Shown here: positions 18,284 to 36,879 of the stretch, one piece after another
How the letters are laid out: every line of letters begins with the position of its first letter
Numbering within the stretch: the first letter of the stretch is position 1
From: Bacteroidota bacterium
GTDB lineage: Bacteria > Bacteroidota > Bacteroidia > UBA4408
DNA: 64,000 nt
Reading direction: 5' to 3'
NCBI GenBank assembly: GCA_040385525.1
Contig: JAZKHE010000005.1
Coordinates: 96,910 to 160,909, forward strand
Made by a program: the position numbers and the translations under genes
The notes under the pieces: generated by a model
Told to the model about the DNA's origin: nothing
Databases searched by the model: none
The model's input: only the letters and a program-made list of their open reading frames with translations

Positions 18284-19189
18284 CTATTTTGTTAGTTTTT
18301 GGAAAATTTCTTCTAAAGTTTTCTCTTCTTTTTGCATTCCAAGTACTGTTAAATTGTTTTTTATTGCGTATTGAAATAGCTCTTTGCGCACATCAATGTG
18401 TTTTTCGGCTTTAATCATCCATGTATTATTTTCGGTGTTTACAGCATCTAAAACTCCAGCAATACTGCGTAATTGTTTTTTATCAGTGGCTTTATCAAAC
18501 TCTATTGAAACATAAGCATAATCGTCGCTATTGCTTTGCAATTGGCTTGTTTCGTCGTTTGCAACCAATTTACCTTGTTTAACAATAATAACTTTATCAC
18601 AAATGGCCTTTACTTCTTGCATAATGTGGGTAGAAAAAAGTACTGTTTTTTCTTTACCAATTTGCTTTATTAAGTTTCGTATTTCTGTAATTTGGTTAGG
18701 GTCTAAACCAGTTGTAGGCTCATCTAAAATTAACACTTTTGGATTGTGAATCATAGCTTGAGCTAAACCAACACGCTGACGATAGCCTTTTGATAAAGCA
18801 CCAATTTTTTTATTTTGCTCTACTTGCAAACCAACCGTTTCAATCATTTTTTTAACTTGATTCATTGGTTTGTCAATTTTATGAAGCCCAGCAATAAATT
18901 CTAAATATTCCTTAACGTACATATCTAAATACAAAGGATTGTGCTCTGGCAAGTAACCAACAATTTTGCGTACTTCCATTGATTGCTCCATCACATCAAA
19001 ACCACAAACACTTACGCTACCCGATGTTGGCGGAATAAAGCAAGTAATGATTTTCATCATGGTTGATTTTCCTGCACCGTTTGGCCCCAGAAATCCTACA
19101 ATTTGACCAGCGTTAACATTAAAAGAAACATCGTTCAATGCTTTTTGATTTCCGTATAGTTTTGATATGTTTTTTACTTCTATTGACAC
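18284..19189 (-). CDS. gldA: gliding-motility ABC transporter ATP-binding protein GldA
   Basis: 301 aa ABC ATPase (Walker A GPNGAGKST, signature LSKGYRQR, Walker B ILDEPT). The N-terminus MSIEV.NISK.YG.QKAL closely matches flavobacterial GldA. Confidence 0.65.
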   Translation of the reverse strand: MSIEVKNISKLYGNQKALNDVSFNVNAGQIVGFLGPNGAGKSTMMKIITCFIPPTSGSVSVCGFDVMEQSMEVRKIVGYLPEHNPLYLDMYVKEYLEFIAGLHKIDKPMNQVKKMIETVGLQVEQNKKIGALSKGYRQRVGLAQAMIHNPKVLILDEPTTGLDPNQITEIRNLIKQIGKEKTVLFSTHIMQEVKAICDKVIIVKQGKLVANDETSQLQSNSDDYAYVSIEFDKATDKKQLRSIAGVLDAVNTENNTWMIKAEKHIDVRKELFQYAIKNNLTVLGMQKEEKTLEEIFQKLTK

Positions 19190-19533
19190 TTTTTTTATTT
19201 TTTTAATTCCTAATAAATAAAAACAATCATTTAGGAAAAATGACTAGTACGAAGTTAGCGTTTTTTGTAATAATATCATAAACGCACTTTCTGCTATAAT
19301 AATGAATGTATGAACTAAACATTCTATCTAATTTTTTTACGAGTCGCTGTATCTTTTTTTTGTTTTTGCATTATGTAGTTAAAATCATCAATAATGAAAA
19401 AACAATTGAATAGAATAATGCTTTTGCCACCTTAGGTTTTATTGCATTGCGGATGATACAAAATCGCAGCATGTATCTAAAAAATTATAGAATAAAAAAC
19501 AAAATAGTATTTACAATTTAAAAAATAGAAACC

Positions 19534-21237
19534 ATGGCAACAGGAGGCTCACCCCGCGATAAAATGATTGGTATGATGTATTTAGTTTTAACCGCTTTAT
19601 TGGCGATGAATGTATCTAAAGACATTTTAAATTCTTTTATAGTTGTTAACGACGGCTTATCAAAAACCAATCAAGGATTTGAAAATAAAAACGCAGATAC
19701 TTACAATCAGTTTTCTAAATTGAGCGAAAAAGATGCAAAAGCAAAACCTTATTTCGATAGGGCGCAACAAGTGCAAAAGTTGAGTAAAGAAATGCGCGAT
19801 TATATTTTCGATATTAAGAAAAAACTATTGATGGTAATTGATAAAAAAGATGATACGGCCGCTGTTCGTATTCTTAAAACAAATATGTACGAAATAGATT
19901 CGAAAGATAATTATGACGAACCAACTCGTTTGTTAGGTTTGGGCGAGCCTACAAACCCAGCAAAAAAACCTGTTCAAGCTAATGGGCCAAACACAGCTTT
20001 TCAATTAAAAACTAAAATTGACGAAACAAGAGAAAAATTTTTAAAGCTAATTGCAGATGGCAATGGTGTTAAACTTTTGGCTACAGAAAAAACCGCTCTT
20101 GAAAAATCAATTAAAACCATTTTAAATACAGATGTTAAACGTATTGATAATGGTGTTGAAGAAGATTGGAGCGCAATTAATTTTTATCATATTCCGTTAG
20201 TTGCTGCAATAACCAACTTAACAAAAATGGAGTCGGATATAAACAATGCCGAAGCAGATATGGTAAAAACATTAATAGGTGCAGTTGGTGCAAACGATGT
20301 TAAATTCGATCAGTTTGAAGCACGTGTTTTAGCCGGCACAACTTATGTTTTACAAGGCGAAGAATTTAAAGCTGATGTAATACTTGCTGCAAGTAGTTCA
20401 ACACAAAAAAATAAAATGATTGTTGGTAATGTTGATACTGTAAAAAAAGAATTAATAGGCAACGGAACTGAGTTACAAATTGTAAGAGGTTTGGGAAAAT
20501 ACGCTGTAAAAACAACAGGCGAAGGTTTACAAAAATGGGGCGGTATTATTGAAGTAAATAAGCCTGATGGAACGGTAGAAAAATATCCGTTTCAACATGA
20601 GTATATTGTTGCTCGCCCAGCAGCAGCAACCTTTTTAAAAAAGATGAATGTTTTTTATATTGGCGTTGACAATCCAATATTAATAAGCGCTGCAGGTATT
20701 GCCGAAACAAATTTGCAGTACACAATTACTGGCGGTGGTGGAACTATAAAAAAAGGGAAAGACGAAGAAGGCAAAGATTGCTGGATAGCAAGGGTAACAA
20801 CACCCACGCAAAAACCCAATTTTGTAACCATAACCGTTAGCGATAAAACAAGTAAAAAAGTATTAGGCACTTTTAATTTTAGAGCAAAATCGTTGCCAAC
20901 ACCAACAAGTGTTTTGGGTGGACAAAGTGGTACTTTTCCAATGAGAAAATCGTTGTTAAGTGCTTTATCAGGTGTAACTGCTAAAATGGAAAATTTTGAT
21001 TTTGAATTCCCAATTAAAATTGTAAGTTTTAAGTATGAAAATTTTAGTGGTGCTAATTCAGCTTCTTATTCAAGCGAAACTAACGACAAAGGTGTAGCCG
21101 TTATGAGTGTAAAAATGAAAGACGACATAAGTAAATTAAAGGCAAATTCAAAAATTTATTTTACTGAAATAAAAGCTTTAATGCCCGATGGAAAAACACG
21201 AACACTGCCAGATATAGGCGTAAAAATTATTTTATAA
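19534..21237 (+). CDS. GldM/PorM-like protein (type IX secretion / gliding motility family paralog)
   Basis: 567 aa. N-terminus MATGGSPRDKMIGMMYLVLTALLAMNVSKDILNSF matches the conserved GldM/PorM N-terminal cytoplasmic stub plus single transmembrane helix (consensus ...PRQKMINLMYLVFIAMLALNMSKEVL). Long periplasmic region. No gldK/L/N adjacent. Confidence 0.55.
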   Translation: MATGGSPRDKMIGMMYLVLTALLAMNVSKDILNSFIVVNDGLSKTNQGFENKNADTYNQFSKLSEKDAKAKPYFDRAQQVQKLSKEMRDYIFDIKKKLLMVIDKKDDTAAVRILKTNMYEIDSKDNYDEPTRLLGLGEPTNPAKKPVQANGPNTAFQLKTKIDETREKFLKLIADGNGVKLLATEKTALEKSIKTILNTDVKRIDNGVEEDWSAINFYHIPLVAAITNLTKMESDINNAEADMVKTLIGAVGANDVKFDQFEARVLAGTTYVLQGEEFKADVILAASSSTQKNKMIVGNVDTVKKELIGNGTELQIVRGLGKYAVKTTGEGLQKWGGIIEVNKPDGTVEKYPFQHEYIVARPAAATFLKKMNVFYIGVDNPILISAAGIAETNLQYTITGGGGTIKKGKDEEGKDCWIARVTTPTQKPNFVTITVSDKTSKKVLGTFNFRAKSLPTPTSVLGGQSGTFPMRKSLLSALSGVTAKMENFDFEFPIKIVSFKYENFSGANSASYSSETNDKGVAVMSVKMKDDISKLKANSKIYFTEIKALMPDGKTRTLPDIGVKIIL

Positions 21238-21249
21238 GTTAAAAATAAA

Positions 21250-21285
21250 AAAAAGTCTGAGCGCAAGTTCGGACTTTTTTTATTG
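21250..21285 (+). terminator. rho-independent terminator after the gldM-like gene
   Basis: AGTCTGAGCGCAAGTTCGGACT hairpin followed by TTTTTTT. Confidence 0.45.
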
Positions 21286-21316: not shown

Positions 21317-22249
21317 ATGACGGGAACAGTAATAAAATCTACAGGCAGTTGGTATCAAGTAATGATAGCTGATAATAAAATTTACGATTGCAAAATTAGA
21401 GGAAGCTTTAGAATAAAAGGAATAAAAGCAACCAATCCAATTGCAGCTGGAGATATTGTAGATATTGAGCTAGAGCCAGATGAGATGATTGGGAATATTG
21501 TGAAAATTCACGAAAGAAAAAATTATATCATTCGTAAATCAATCAATTTATCTAAGCAAGTACATATTCTTGCAGCCAACATCGATCATGCTTATTTGGT
21601 AGGAAGTATTGCACAACCAAAAATTAAATTTGGATTTATAGATCGCTTTTTGGTAACAGCTGAAGCTTATCATATTCCTGCTACAATTATTTTAAATAAA
21701 ACAGATGCTAATACCGAAGAAGATAATGAGTTGATGAAACATTATAAAGAGATGTACGAAAAAATTGGTTACGAAGTAATTTGTATGTCGGCTTTTAATA
21801 ATGAAGATGTTGAGCGTTTAAAAATAAAATTGAAAGGAAAAATAAATTTATTTTCGGGCAACTCAGGTGTTGGTAAATCAACATTAATAAATAAAATGGA
21901 GTTGCAATTAAATTTAAAAACAGCTGAAATATCTACTTCAAACGAAAAAGGAACGCACACCACTACATTTGCAGAAATGCATCCACTAACGTTTGGCGGC
22001 TATATAATTGATACACCAGGTATTAAAGAATTGGGTGTTGTTGATATTGATAAAAAAGAAGTAAGTCATTATTTTTTAGAAATGCGCGAACGTTTAAACG
22101 ATTGTAAGTTTAGCAATTGCACGCATATTAACGAACCGGGTTGTGCAATTAAAAAAGCGGTAGAAGCTGGAGAAATATCGCCTACACGCTACAGTAGTTA
22201 TTTAGATGTTTACGAAAATAGAGAAGAAGAAGAGGATAATAAGTATTAA
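21317..22249 (+). CDS. rsgA: ribosome small-subunit-dependent GTPase A
   Basis: 310 aa. Circularly permuted GTPase (NKTD before GNSGVGKSTLIN) and a C-terminal Zn-binding CKFSNCTHINEPGC motif. Confidence 0.85.
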   Translation: MTGTVIKSTGSWYQVMIADNKIYDCKIRGSFRIKGIKATNPIAAGDIVDIELEPDEMIGNIVKIHERKNYIIRKSINLSKQVHILAANIDHAYLVGSIAQPKIKFGFIDRFLVTAEAYHIPATIILNKTDANTEEDNELMKHYKEMYEKIGYEVICMSAFNNEDVERLKIKLKGKINLFSGNSGVGKSTLINKMELQLNLKTAEISTSNEKGTHTTTFAEMHPLTFGGYIIDTPGIKELGVVDIDKKEVSHYFLEMRERLNDCKFSNCTHINEPGCAIKKAVEAGEISPTRYSSYLDVYENREEEEDNKY

Positions 22250-36384: not shown

Positions 36385-36879
36385 TTAAAAGTAAAACAAA
36401 GAAAAACTTGAACTATAACCAAGTTTGTTTGCCCATGGCCAATGTTGAGATTTAAATAAGTAATGAACTAACATTAAACCTAGCGCACTACAAAAAATTA
36501 AATAGAAATACTTGTCGATTTTACTTTTATTTTTCCATTGATAATAAAACCAAAATGGTAAATAATTGACAGTAAAAATAAATGTTCCAATTACTCCTAA
36601 TGCACTTCCTCCCGGCCAATGGAACATTCTAAAGATTAGGGCAAGCACTCCAAATGAAATCCCAGTTAAACCTGCATAGTTTAACCATTTAACACTTTCC
36701 TTATTGTTACTTTTGATTTTATCAAGAAGAATTGTAGGAAAGTATAGACAACAGAAGACAAATATGTCAACAACAATTATAAGAACACCATTTTCTGATT
36801 CAAAAACTGTTAAGAGAACTAACCCAATTATAAAAATTGAAATTAGTGTCAAAAGTCCGTATTTAATAAAACCTTTCAT
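36385..36879 (-). CDS. hypothetical polytopic membrane protein
   Basis: 164 aa with 4-5 predicted transmembrane helices. Directly upstream of the phosphatase gene. Confidence 0.4.
   Translation of the reverse strand: MKGFIKYGLLTLISIFIIGLVLLTVFESENGVLIIVVDIFVFCCLYFPTILLDKIKSNNKESVKWLNYAGLTGISFGVLALIFRMFHWPGGSALGVIGTFIFTVNYLPFWFYYQWKNKSKIDKYFYLIFCSALGLMLVHYLFKSQHWPWANKLGYSSSFSLFYF

What the first reader, a model, noticed from the sequence alone, without database searches (positions are those of the whole stretch)
18284..21237. Orphan GldM/PorM-like gene divergently adjacent to gldA, with no gldK, gldL or gldN
The 567-aa product has the unmistakable GldM/PorM N-terminus (…PRDKMIGMMYLVLTALLAMNVSKDIL…, a single transmembrane helix) and a long periplasmic region. 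In known systems gldM lies in a gldKLMN/porKLMN operon, because the GldL-GldM pair forms the proton-driven motor. Here the gene is monocistronic with its own terminator. It is divergent from gldA (an ABC ATPase) across a 344-bp AT-rich shared promoter region. That fits a GldM paralog with a diverged role, for example a second rotor/stator-like periplasmic shaft used without GldL, or an accessory type IX secretion or gliding component.
Basis: partly seen in the sequence, partly recalled or inferred. Interest (0 to 1): 0.5.

Follow-up and report, generated by a model that had tools for sequence, protein, structure and literature searches.

The report
Second stand-alone GldM motor-shaft paralog
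Besides its normal gldKLMN gliding/secretion operon, this uncultured Bacteroidota genome has a second, intact and selectively maintained gldM gene sitting alone next to gldA; it keeps the membrane helix that plugs into the GldL proton motor but has a remodelled outer end, so it probably links the same motor to a modified target.

Summary
Window 19534-21237(+) encodes a full four-domain GldM (TIGR03517 293 bits, cutoff 180). It is divergent from a true gldA across 344 bp, ends in a conserved terminator, and no porP, gldK, gldL or gldN lies anywhere in the 64 kb.

It is a second copy, not the genome's only gldM. The window's proteins are GenBank MES2837400-402 and MES2837423 on a 282-kb MAG contig. 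A canonical gldL-gldM-gldN (MES2838396-398, 332-kb contig) occurs in the same sequencing run with identical GC and tetranucleotide usage.

The two GldMs are 60% identical, with a gradient: TMH region 92% (helix identical, Arg8 kept), D1 64, D2 68, D3 52, D4 39. The copy is under purifying selection (dN/dS 0.06; D3 has 0 nonsynonymous and 24 synonymous changes). Every domain traces to the genome's own canonical lineage.

Best reading: an alternative rotor/shaft that uses the same GldL stator but has a specialised distal end.

The type was seen in only two datasets. GenBank already names the gene GldM, but I found no report of duplicated gldM. Moderate interest.

The parts
18284..19189 (-). gldA, the ATP-binding subunit of the gliding-motility ABC transporter (GenBank MES2837400.1). 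Divergent neighbour of the second gldM.
   Evidence: TIGR03522 equivalog 451.2 bits, cutoff 402.6. PF00005. Accession. dN/dS 0.017 against the 96% relative.
19190..19533 (.). 344-bp AT-rich spacer between gldA and the second gldM; presumed to hold the promoters of both genes. Fully conserved blocks at 19346-19385, 19466-19483 and 19498-19518.
   Evidence: 76.8% identity overall to the relative's spacer, with blocks of about 40 nt at 100% although flanking dS is about 0.36. No exact TAnnTTTG motif; sigma-70-like matches are below shuffle expectation. Promoter function is inferred, not shown.
19534..21237 (+). Second gldM ('W'; GenBank MES2837401.1), 567 aa: a full-length GldM/PorM-family motor rotor and periplasmic shaft.
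   Evidence: phmmer matches to PorM 7cmg (1.6e-39) and GldM 6ys8/7sau. AF2 mean pLDDT 80.5. Top Foldseek PDB hits are PorM/GldM. dN/dS 0.062.
19534..19647 (+). Cytoplasmic N-terminus plus the single transmembrane helix (residues 1-38), including Arg8 (codon 19555-19557), the equivalent of Fjo GldM Arg9.
   Evidence: Residues 6-35 are identical to the canonical paralog. Arg8 aligns with R9 of 6ys8. 26 of 27 near-invariant positions are kept. 0 nonsynonymous changes against the relative.
19648..20283 (+). D1, helical periplasmic domain (residues 39-250), with a lineage-specific insertion at residues 143-148.
   Evidence: PF12081 113.8 bits. Helices span 7-253 in the AF2 model. 64% identity to the canonical copy. 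omega 0.03.
20284..20619 (+). D2, first Ig-like domain (residues 251-362).
   Evidence: PF21601 75 bits. 68% identity to the canonical copy. omega 0.02. 4 conservative changes at otherwise >=90% conserved sites.
20620..20892 (+). D3, second Ig-like domain (residues 363-453). It is unusually diverged (52% to the canonical copy, while canonical orthologs keep 98%), has insertions at 402-407 and 427-430, and holds the protein's only Cys (C416).
   Evidence: PF21602 50.5 bits. Identities. 0 nonsynonymous versus 24 synonymous changes against the relative. Insertions.
20893..21234 (+). D4, the C-terminal domain (residues 454-567) that contacts PorN/GldN in PorM. 39% identity to the canonical copy; insertion at 519-523.
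   Evidence: PF12080 42.7 bits. Identities. omega 0.16, compared with 0.12 in canonical D4. Role of D4 from PMC12421860. The best relative of D3-D4 among 1.84 billion representatives is still the sister canonical clade (149 bits, next best 116).
21247..21281 (+). Intrinsic terminator of the second gldM (A8, GUCUGAGC-GCAA-GUUCGGAC, U7).
   Evidence: The weak Rfam MicC/Thr-leader matches at this position are explained by the hairpin.
21317..22249 (+). rsgA, the downstream neighbour. Together with gldA it probably formed the original junction into which the second gldM was inserted.
   Evidence: TIGR00157 238.6 bits. In metagenome locus L121 a true gldA(-) and rsgA(+) are divergent neighbours 61 bp apart with no gldM between them.

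Best explanation
The gene is a second, functional gldM ('GldM2') in a genome that also has a complete canonical gldKLMN operon on another contig. It arose from the same lineage as the resident canonical gldM, before that lineage's last sampled speciation, and now sits as a single-gene unit in a gldA|rsgA junction. Its product keeps everything needed to be the rotor of the GldL5GldM2 proton motor: the transmembrane helix, the coupling arginine, and the helical D1 followed by three Ig-like domains. Its distal domains D3-D4, the end that reaches the GldK/GldN ring or track under the outer membrane, have been remodelled and then fixed by selection. The most likely mechanism is that GldM2 dimers (or GldM/GldM2 mixed dimers) assemble in trans with GldL from the canonical operon. 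This would give a second class of motor units whose periplasmic tip engages a modified or different outer-membrane-proximal partner. Shown: identity as GldM, second-copy status (strong but indirect), purifying selection, the divergence gradient, and the retained fold. Inferred: GldL use, a different distal partner, and the insertion history.
For: Family membership. Second copy: W, GldA and RsgA are MES2837401/400/402 and the window's MurF-Alr is MES2837423 on a 281,982-bp contig, while canonical GldL/M/N are MES2838396-398 on a 332,079-bp contig with the same organism name. All three contigs are present in run SRR26324626. L094 has GC 0.320, the same as the window, and TNF r=0.991. The canonical proteins pass their equivalog cutoffs and GldL keeps the TMH2 Glu. 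No second GldL from that accession block appeared among those NCBI-sourced GldL hits whose accessions could be read. Function retained: dN/dS 0.062 overall, and by domain TMH 0, D1 0.03, D2 0.02, D3 0, D4 0.16; 107 of 116 highly conserved positions kept. GldL coupling: the TMH is identical to the canonical copy and Arg8 is kept; the Arg9-Glu49 pair is described as conserved in GldLM/PorLM structures (bioRxiv 10.1101/2022.01.28.478170). Distal specialisation: W versus canonical copy is 92/64/68/52/39% by domain, against 100/80/96/98/79% between canonical orthologs; W's branch is longer than its sister's; D4 is the PorN-binding domain (PMC12421860) and motors push on GldN (PMC12635249). Origin: (W, P0001) is sister to the canonical clade; shared-derived sites are C+P0004 24, W+C 3, W+P0004 1; every domain's best hit is that same clade. 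Arrangement conserved in a second sample (L006).
Against: The assembly itself could not be inspected, so two related organisms binned together is not excluded. W-type genes were found in only two datasets. They were not found in several samples that carry the sister canonical lineage, so the paralog is either often lost or the history is more complex than a simple duplication. No candidate alternative distal partner was identified: the 286-aa gene after gldN is not a GldN paralog. Faster D4 evolution is also seen in canonical GldM (omega 0.12), so part of the D4 divergence may be neutral drift. There are no expression or interaction data.
Confidence: 0.55

Rival explanations
1. Same-function isoform: GldM2 does the same job as the canonical GldM on the same GldK/GldN partners. 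It is kept because it is expressed separately (own promoter next to gldA, own terminator), for example for dosage or under other conditions. The D3-D4 differences would be tolerated drift plus co-adaptation.
For: Independent transcription unit. All family-defining features are retained, and its TIGR03517 score (293 bits) is nearly equal to the canonical copy's 306. Canonical D4 also evolves relatively fast, omega 0.12.
Against: D3 is 96-98% conserved between canonical orthologs and 72% to a more distant canonical GldM, but only 52% in W. Yet W's D3 shows 0 nonsynonymous against 24 synonymous changes. That is a shifted constraint, not a relaxed one. W also has four lineage-specific insertions and has lost all three Cys of the canonical copy.
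Confidence: 0.2
2. Binning artefact: the two large contigs come from two related organisms in the same sample. The window's gene would then be the only gldM of its organism, an ortholog moved out of the operon, with gldK/L/N elsewhere.
For: This was my working hypothesis up. W's nearest relatives are all operon-encoded and W branches as sister to them. Composition cannot separate close relatives: the JGI relative L002 also gives TNF r=0.989. Samples with the sister canonical lineage lack W-type genes.
Against: The two loci share the same run, the same organism name and an accession distance of only 996 proteins. No second GldL from that block appears among the top 120 GldL hits. In the GldL tree, the only sequence branching next to the canonical lineage's GldL (P0125) sits beside its own canonical gldM. 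No second MurF-Alr at 66-79% identity comes from NCBI. The 52% identity in D3 is far below what orthologs at this depth show.
Confidence: 0.12
3. GldL-independent shaft or accessory protein: the paralog no longer works with GldL and acts as a passive periplasmic strut or with another energiser.
For: No gldL is adjacent. The window holds a weakly GldL-like 164-aa membrane protein at 36385-36879.
Against: The TMH is identical to the canonical copy, Arg8 is kept and the region has zero nonsynonymous change. The 164-aa protein is 15 kb away, scores only 8.7 bits against a GldL profile and lacks the TMH2 glutamate.
Confidence: 0.05
4. Decaying or recently acquired non-functional duplicate.
For: Orphan location and narrow phylogenetic distribution.
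Against: The reading frame is intact in two strains with dS 0.36 and dN/dS 0.06. The terminator and upstream blocks are conserved. The predicted four-domain fold is confident. GC and GC3 match the genome.
Confidence: 0.02

Closest known systems
GldM (Flavobacterium johnsoniae) / PorM (Porphyromonas gingivalis), the rotor and periplasmic shaft of the GldL5GldM2 / PorL5PorM2 proton motor of the type IX secretion and gliding machinery
   Same: Single N-terminal TMH with the conserved Arg, helical D1 and three Ig-like domains. Equivalog-level HMM score. Best sequence and structure matches in the PDB are 7cmg, 6ey4, 6ys8, 7sau and related entries.
   Different: It is not in a gldKLMN/porKLMN operon. 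It is a second copy alongside a canonical one. D3-D4 are strongly diverged from the co-resident canonical copy, with four lineage-specific insertions and a different cysteine pattern.
Paralog pairs already known in the machinery: GldN/GldO and GldK/GldJ of F. johnsoniae (PMC9127263; PMC12635249)
   Same: Duplication of a core ring or track component followed by partial redundancy (GldO) or a new structural role (GldJ in the gliding track). This is a precedent for functional splitting within this machine. Tandem gldN paralogs were also seen here in L004, L036, L041, L116 and L117.
   Different: Those duplications affect the outer-membrane-proximal ring or track, and gldO lies next to gldN. Here the duplicated part is the inner-membrane motor rotor itself, and the copy lies far from the operon. 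I found no report of duplicated gldM/porM in five literature searches.
Dual stator sets of flagellar motors (e.g. MotAB/MotCD in Pseudomonas, PomAB/MotAB in Shewanella); from my own knowledge, an analogy only
   Same: One rotary machine served by two interchangeable paralogous force-generating or force-transmitting modules encoded at separate loci.
   Different: In flagella the whole stator (both subunits) is duplicated. Here only the 2-copy inner subunit (GldM, the MotB/ExbD-position partner) is duplicated while a single GldL is apparently shared. The families are not homologous at the sequence level tested here.
Cassette-associated GldM-like proteins of uncultured Bacteroidales
   Same: Full four-domain GldM homologs with the Arg and TMH, encoded away from porK/L/N.
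   Different: They have an independent origin, forming a clade nested in Bacteroidales PorM. They are always the last gene of a conserved 263-aa / 897-aa / 164-aa cassette, are not next to gldA, and are about 33% identical to the window's protein.

Membership tests
GldM/PorM (TIGR03517; Pfam PF12081, PF21601, PF21602, PF12080) | Whole-protein match to the curated equivalog model above its cutoff | tested here: met
   292.6 bits against a cutoff of 180, covering residues 5-566. The canonical copy in the same MAG scores 306.4.
GldM/PorM (TIGR03517; Pfam PF12081, PF21601, PF21602, PF12080) | Architecture: N-terminal TMH, helical D1, three Ig-like domains D2-D4 | tested here: met
   All four Pfam domains are above their gathering scores. 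AF2 mean pLDDT 80.5 with helices at 7-253 and beta domains at 263-360, 364-452 and 458-566. Foldseek top hits are PorM 7cmg (9e-27), GldM 6ey4, 6ey5/6ey6 and the GldLM motor structures.
GldM/PorM (TIGR03517; Pfam PF12081, PF21601, PF21602, PF12080) | Conserved arginine at the cytoplasmic end of the TMH (Fjo GldM Arg9), proposed to form a salt bridge with GldL Glu49 | tested here: met
   Arg8 aligns with R9 of 6ys8 ('SPRDKMIGMMYLV' against 'TPRQKMINLMYLV'). It is >=90% conserved in 58 sequences. Its role is described in bioRxiv 10.1101/2022.01.28.478170.
GldM/PorM (TIGR03517; Pfam PF12081, PF21601, PF21602, PF12080) | Encoded in a gldK-gldL-gldM-gldN (porKLMN) operon | tested here: not met
   Neighbours are gldA(-) and rsgA(+), and no K, L, N or PorP lies in the 64 kb. 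Most other loci surveyed do have the operon. This is a contextual feature, not a molecular one, so it does not remove the protein from the family.
GldM/PorM (TIGR03517; Pfam PF12081, PF21601, PF21602, PF12080) | Forms a 5:2 complex with GldL/PorL and transduces the proton-motive force | not testable with these tools
   Only indirect evidence is available: the TMH is identical to the canonical paralog and has zero nonsynonymous change, and a GldL with the TMH2 Glu exists in the MAG.
GldM/PorM (TIGR03517; Pfam PF12081, PF21601, PF21602, PF12080) | C-terminal D4 docks onto PorN/GldN of the PorKN/GldKN ring (PMC12421860) | not testable with these tools
   The D4 fold is retained but its sequence is only 39% identical to the co-resident canonical D4 and carries an insertion at 519-523. 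No multimer modelling tool was available.
GldA (TIGR03522), for the divergent neighbour | Equivalog match above cutoff; ABC ATPase with Walker and signature motifs | tested here: met
   451.2 bits against a cutoff of 402.6, plus PF00005. 'LSKGYRQR' is present in the translation, the signature quoted for Fjo GldA in PMC9127263.

The most novel reading that the evidence does not exclude
Natural division of labour inside the type IX/gliding motor: one GldL stator pool serves two different GldM rotors. The operon-encoded one would drive one output, for example the GldKN secretion hub. The stand-alone one, transcribed beside gldA, would have a re-tooled D3-D4 tip that drives another output, for example the gliding track or a specific carrier. 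Mixed GldM/GldM2 dimers with two unlike tips are an alternative. Together with the independent cassette-borne GldM-like clade in Bacteroidales, this would mean the GldL-GldM motor is a modular engine that evolution has re-coupled to new periplasmic loads more than once.
Probability: 0.27. Interest if true: 0.7.

Novelty: new variant of a known kind. Interest (0 to 1): 0.45.

Why it matters
How one GldLM motor type powers both protein secretion and adhesin movement is an open question in the field (PMC8986121, PMC12635249). A genome that naturally carries two rotor variants, with the same membrane part and different distal ends, offers defined sequence differences in D3-D4 and four insertions. 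These can be grafted into F. johnsoniae GldM or modelled against GldN, GldK and GldJ to ask which contacts specify which output. It also shows that 'gldM outside gldKLMN' should not be read as a broken system or a mis-annotation. The limits are that the organism is uncultured, the type is known from only two datasets, and the functional split is inferred, not shown.

Tried and rejected
(1) 'Only gldM of the genome, relocated from the operon'. This was my leading idea through, because all near homologs are operon-encoded. I abandoned it when accession numbers and the run identifier placed a canonical gldLMN in the same MAG and run.

(2) Guessing the organism's gldL from the GldL hit list. P0124 and P0125 came from other samples and sit in canonical operons. 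A GldL tree gave no further candidate. Cluster listings give no Logan sample names.

(3) Species-genome scan. The nearest named genome is only 38% identical, so the lineage is absent or masked there.

(4) Mosaic origin of D3-D4 by recombination. Rejected because every domain's best hit is the same sister clade, both locally and among 1.84 billion representatives.

(5) The 286-aa gene after gldN as a hidden GldN paralog and partner. There is no similarity; it is a lipoprotein.

(6) The downstream 164-aa and 590-aa pair as a second gldLM. It is not one: it is a GldM-D1-like sensor domain fused to a PP2C phosphatase, plus an HWPG membrane protein lacking the motor glutamate.

(7) Promoter motifs. 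No exact Bacteroidota -7 consensus was found, and sigma-70-like hits are below chance.

(8) Rfam. Only sub-threshold hits, explained by the terminator hairpin.

(9) Metagenome scan for other gldA-adjacent copies. None were found.
Full report
OBSERVATION. Window 18284-19189(-) is a true gldA: TIGR03522 scores 451 bits against a cutoff of 402.6. Window 19534-21237(+) encodes a 567-aa protein that matches all four Pfam GldM domains above threshold. It also matches the TIGR03517 PorM/GldM equivalog model over residues 5-566 at 292.6 bits, cutoff 180. phmmer against the PDB aligns it end to end with PorM 7cmg (1.6e-39) and with GldM from the GldLM motor structures. An AlphaFold2 model (mean pLDDT 80.5) shows a TMH running into a helical D1, followed by three beta domains. 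Its best structural matches are PorM and GldM. The neighbours are metK and gldA on one side and rsgA and dtd on the other.

The 79-bp spacer after the gene contains a clean intrinsic terminator at 21247-21281 (dG -21.9 kcal/mol, z -3.8). Neither tblastn with sister-lineage proteins nor profile HMMs against all six-frame ORFs find porP, gldK, gldL or gldN, or remnants of them, anywhere in the 64 kb.

IS IT THE ONLY gldM OR A SECOND ONE? The nearest homologs with readable context (58, 57, 48, 43 and 41% identity) all lie in porP-gldK-gldL-gldM-gldN operons. A 96% relative from another sequencing run has the same gldA / gldM-rsgA-dtd arrangement (L006). Most of the 79 genome loci and 54 metagenome loci surveyed have the operon. 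For a while the simplest reading was therefore a canonical gldM moved out of its operon.

That changed when a housekeeping protein of the window, MurF-Alr, turned out to be 100% identical to GenBank MES2837423.1 on a 281,982-bp MAG contig. The window's GldA, GldM and RsgA are MES2837400.1, MES2837401.1 and MES2837402.1 on the same contig. A canonical GldL, GldM and GldN are MES2838396.1, MES2838397.1 and MES2838398.1 on a 332,079-bp contig with the same organism name, 996 accession numbers away.

The same three pieces occur as separate contigs of one sequencing run, SRR26324626. The canonical-operon contig (L094) has the window's exact GC (0.320) and a tetranucleotide correlation of 0.991, as high as the window's own fragments. 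The canonical GldL, GldM and GldN all pass their equivalog cutoffs, and that GldL keeps the TMH2 glutamate. No second GldL or second MurF-Alr from that accession block was seen among the hits whose accessions could be read.

I conclude, at roughly 85% confidence, that one genome holds both genes and that the window's gene is a paralog. GenBank already names both proteins 'gliding motility protein GldM'.

HOW THE COPY DIFFERS. The two co-resident GldMs are 60% identical overall, with a marked gradient by domain:
- N-terminus plus TMH: 92%, and the helix itself is identical
- D1: 64%
- D2: 68%
- D3: 52%
- D4: 39%

Between the canonical copy and its ortholog in a sister species the same domains are 100, 80, 96, 98 and 79% identical. 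D3 is thus normally very conserved and has shifted specifically in the stand-alone copy.

The copy retains 107 of 116 positions that are at least 90% conserved across 56 other GldMs. Its 9 changes are mostly conservative, against 0-2 in the canonical sequences tested. It carries insertions at residues 143-148, 402-407, 427-430 and 519-523. It lacks the three cysteines of the canonical copy and has one of its own in the D3 insertion.

It is not decaying. Against the 96% relative, dN/dS is 0.062 overall, compared with 0.10 for rsgA and 0.25 for dtd. By domain the values are TMH 0, D1 0.03, D2 0.02, D3 0 (0 nonsynonymous versus 24 synonymous changes) and D4 0.16; canonical D4 is 0.12.

ORIGIN. 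In a neighbour-joining tree the copy and its 96% relative form the sister group of the canonical clade that includes the genome's own operon copy. Its branch is longer, about 4-6 identity points further from every outgroup. At sites polarised by outgroups, the canonical copy and its sister-species ortholog share 24 derived states. The stand-alone copy shares 3 with the canonical copy and 1 with the ortholog. The split therefore predates that speciation.

Each domain taken alone finds its best match in the same clade. An exhaustive search of 1.84 billion representatives with D3-D4 also returns that clade first, at 149 bits against 116 for the next hit. The distal end thus diverged in place and was not swapped in. 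GC and GC3 match the genome.

In one metagenome locus (L121) a true gldA(-) and rsgA(+) are divergent neighbours only 61 bp apart, about 2 kb from a gldKLMN operon. This suggests, from a single example, that the copy was inserted into a pre-existing gldA|rsgA junction.

W-type genes were found only in two runs. They were not found in samples holding the sister canonical lineage. That implies loss in relatives, sparse sampling, or a more complex history.

MECHANISM. Established knowledge is as follows. GldM/PorM dimers sit inside a GldL/PorL pentamer, and a conserved Arg (Fjo Arg9) faces GldL Glu49 (bioRxiv 10.1101/2022.01.28.478170). GldL Glu49 is required for motor function (PMC8986121). D4 docks onto PorN (PMC12421860). 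The motors push on GldN subunits of the PorKN ring or the GldJKN track (PMC12635249).

The stand-alone copy keeps Arg8, the equivalent of Arg9, an unchanged TMH, and strongly constrained D1-D2. The end that meets the ring or track is remodelled and then held fixed. The best-supported reading is a second rotor/shaft that uses the same GldL, supplied in trans, but presents a different tip. That gives a second class of motor unit, or mixed dimers. GldL use and a distinct distal partner are inferences; no partner was identified.

Three rivals remain: a same-function, separately regulated isoform; a two-organism bin in which this is a relocated ortholog; and a non-functional duplicate, which the selection data effectively exclude.

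REGULATION. The 344-bp spacer is 77% identical to the relative's. Fully conserved blocks at 19346-19385, 19466-19483 and 19498-19518 are more conserved than synonymous sites. No exact Bacteroidota -7 motif was found, and sigma-70-like matches are below chance. A divergent promoter region shared with gldA is plausible but not shown. [quoted passage not shown]

COMPARISON AND NOVELTY. The protein is a member of the GldM/PorM family by every molecular criterion I could test. Only the contextual criterion, operon membership, fails. Paralog pairs are known for the ring and track components (GldN/GldO and GldK/GldJ; PMC9127263). Five literature searches found no description of a duplicated gldM/porM; the 'two GldM' hits refer to subunit stoichiometry. 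I rate it a new variant of a known kind, of moderate interest. The gene is already annotated as GldM, the lineage is narrow and uncultured, and the functional split is inferred.

SIDE FINDING. An independent clade of GldM-like genes occurs outside porKLMN in uncultured Bacteroidales. These genes always end a conserved cassette of 263-aa, 897-aa and 164-aa proteins, in 16 genome loci and 10 metagenome contigs. Re-use of the GldM shaft outside the classical operon has therefore happened more than once.

Noticed in passing
L023:5841-11590 (also L022, L025, L026, L028, L029, L032-L035, L038-L040, L042, L047, L048; metagenome loci L104-L108, L111, L114, L115, L118, L119): In uncultured Bacteroidales a full four-domain GldM/PorM homolog (535 aa, Arg and TMH kept in all but one 5'-truncated ORF call) lies with no porK/L/N within 6-10 kb. 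In loci long enough to show it, it is the last gene of a conserved cassette: a 263-aa protein (no Pfam), an 897-aa protein (only weak prealbumin/CarboxypepD_reg-like C-terminus) and a 164-aa protein (no Pfam), often with extra 164-aa-like paralogs upstream. The GldM-like proteins form one clade nested inside canonical Bacteroidales PorM. This is possibly a GldM-type shaft coupled to a different envelope complex. Whether these genomes also have porKLMN could not be tested.
   Followed up: partly
window:34532-36412 (-) and window:36385-36879 (-): A 590-aa protein combines a GldM-D1-like domain (PF12081 44 bits; 76 bits to my GldM profile), a coiled coil, a TM helix and a SpoIIE/SiaA-like PP2C phosphatase domain. 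In frame upstream of its ATG the sequence reads KQQFIFGFMFAYVLSGIQNRV, which resembles the GldM TMH, so the true start may be non-canonical. Directly upstream is a 164-aa membrane protein with two GldL-like 'F(R/K)xxHWPG/W' helices but no motor glutamate. It looks like a signalling module built from motor-derived parts.
   Followed up: partly
L121:5983-12612: In one freshwater-type metagenome contig, porP-gldKLMN is followed by a 656-aa ABC-type gene and then by gldA(-) and rsgA(+) as divergent neighbours 61 bp apart. Here gldA sits about 2 kb from the motor operon, and the gldA|rsgA junction is intact where the window has the extra gldM.
   Followed up: partly
window:9653-11910 (-): Two tandem paralogous lipoprotein genes (368/369 aa, 60% identical, first 29 aligned residues identical including the lipobox region), each with a PKD domain. 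This is a recent tandem duplication of a probable surface protein.
   Followed up: partly
L004:9673-12426; also L036, L041, L116, L117: Some Flavobacteriales loci carry two or three tandem gldN paralogs after gldM (comparable to gldN/gldO of F. johnsoniae). The window's MAG has a single gldN followed by an unrelated conserved 286-aa lipoprotein.
   Followed up: partly
window:18220-18283 and L006:4619-13077: gldA is followed on the same strand, after only 64 bp with no obvious terminator, by metK, so the two may be co-transcribed. In the 96% relative, synteny with the window ends right after dtd (window ~22885). It continues there with a TonB-dependent receptor and gldD, so this neighbourhood is rearranged between close strains while gldA-gldM-rsgA-dtd is kept.
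   Followed up: no
window:21208-21290: Sub-threshold Rfam matches to MicC and the Thr leader (E 0.19 and 0.52) coincide with the gldM terminator hairpin and are explained by it.
   Followed up: yes
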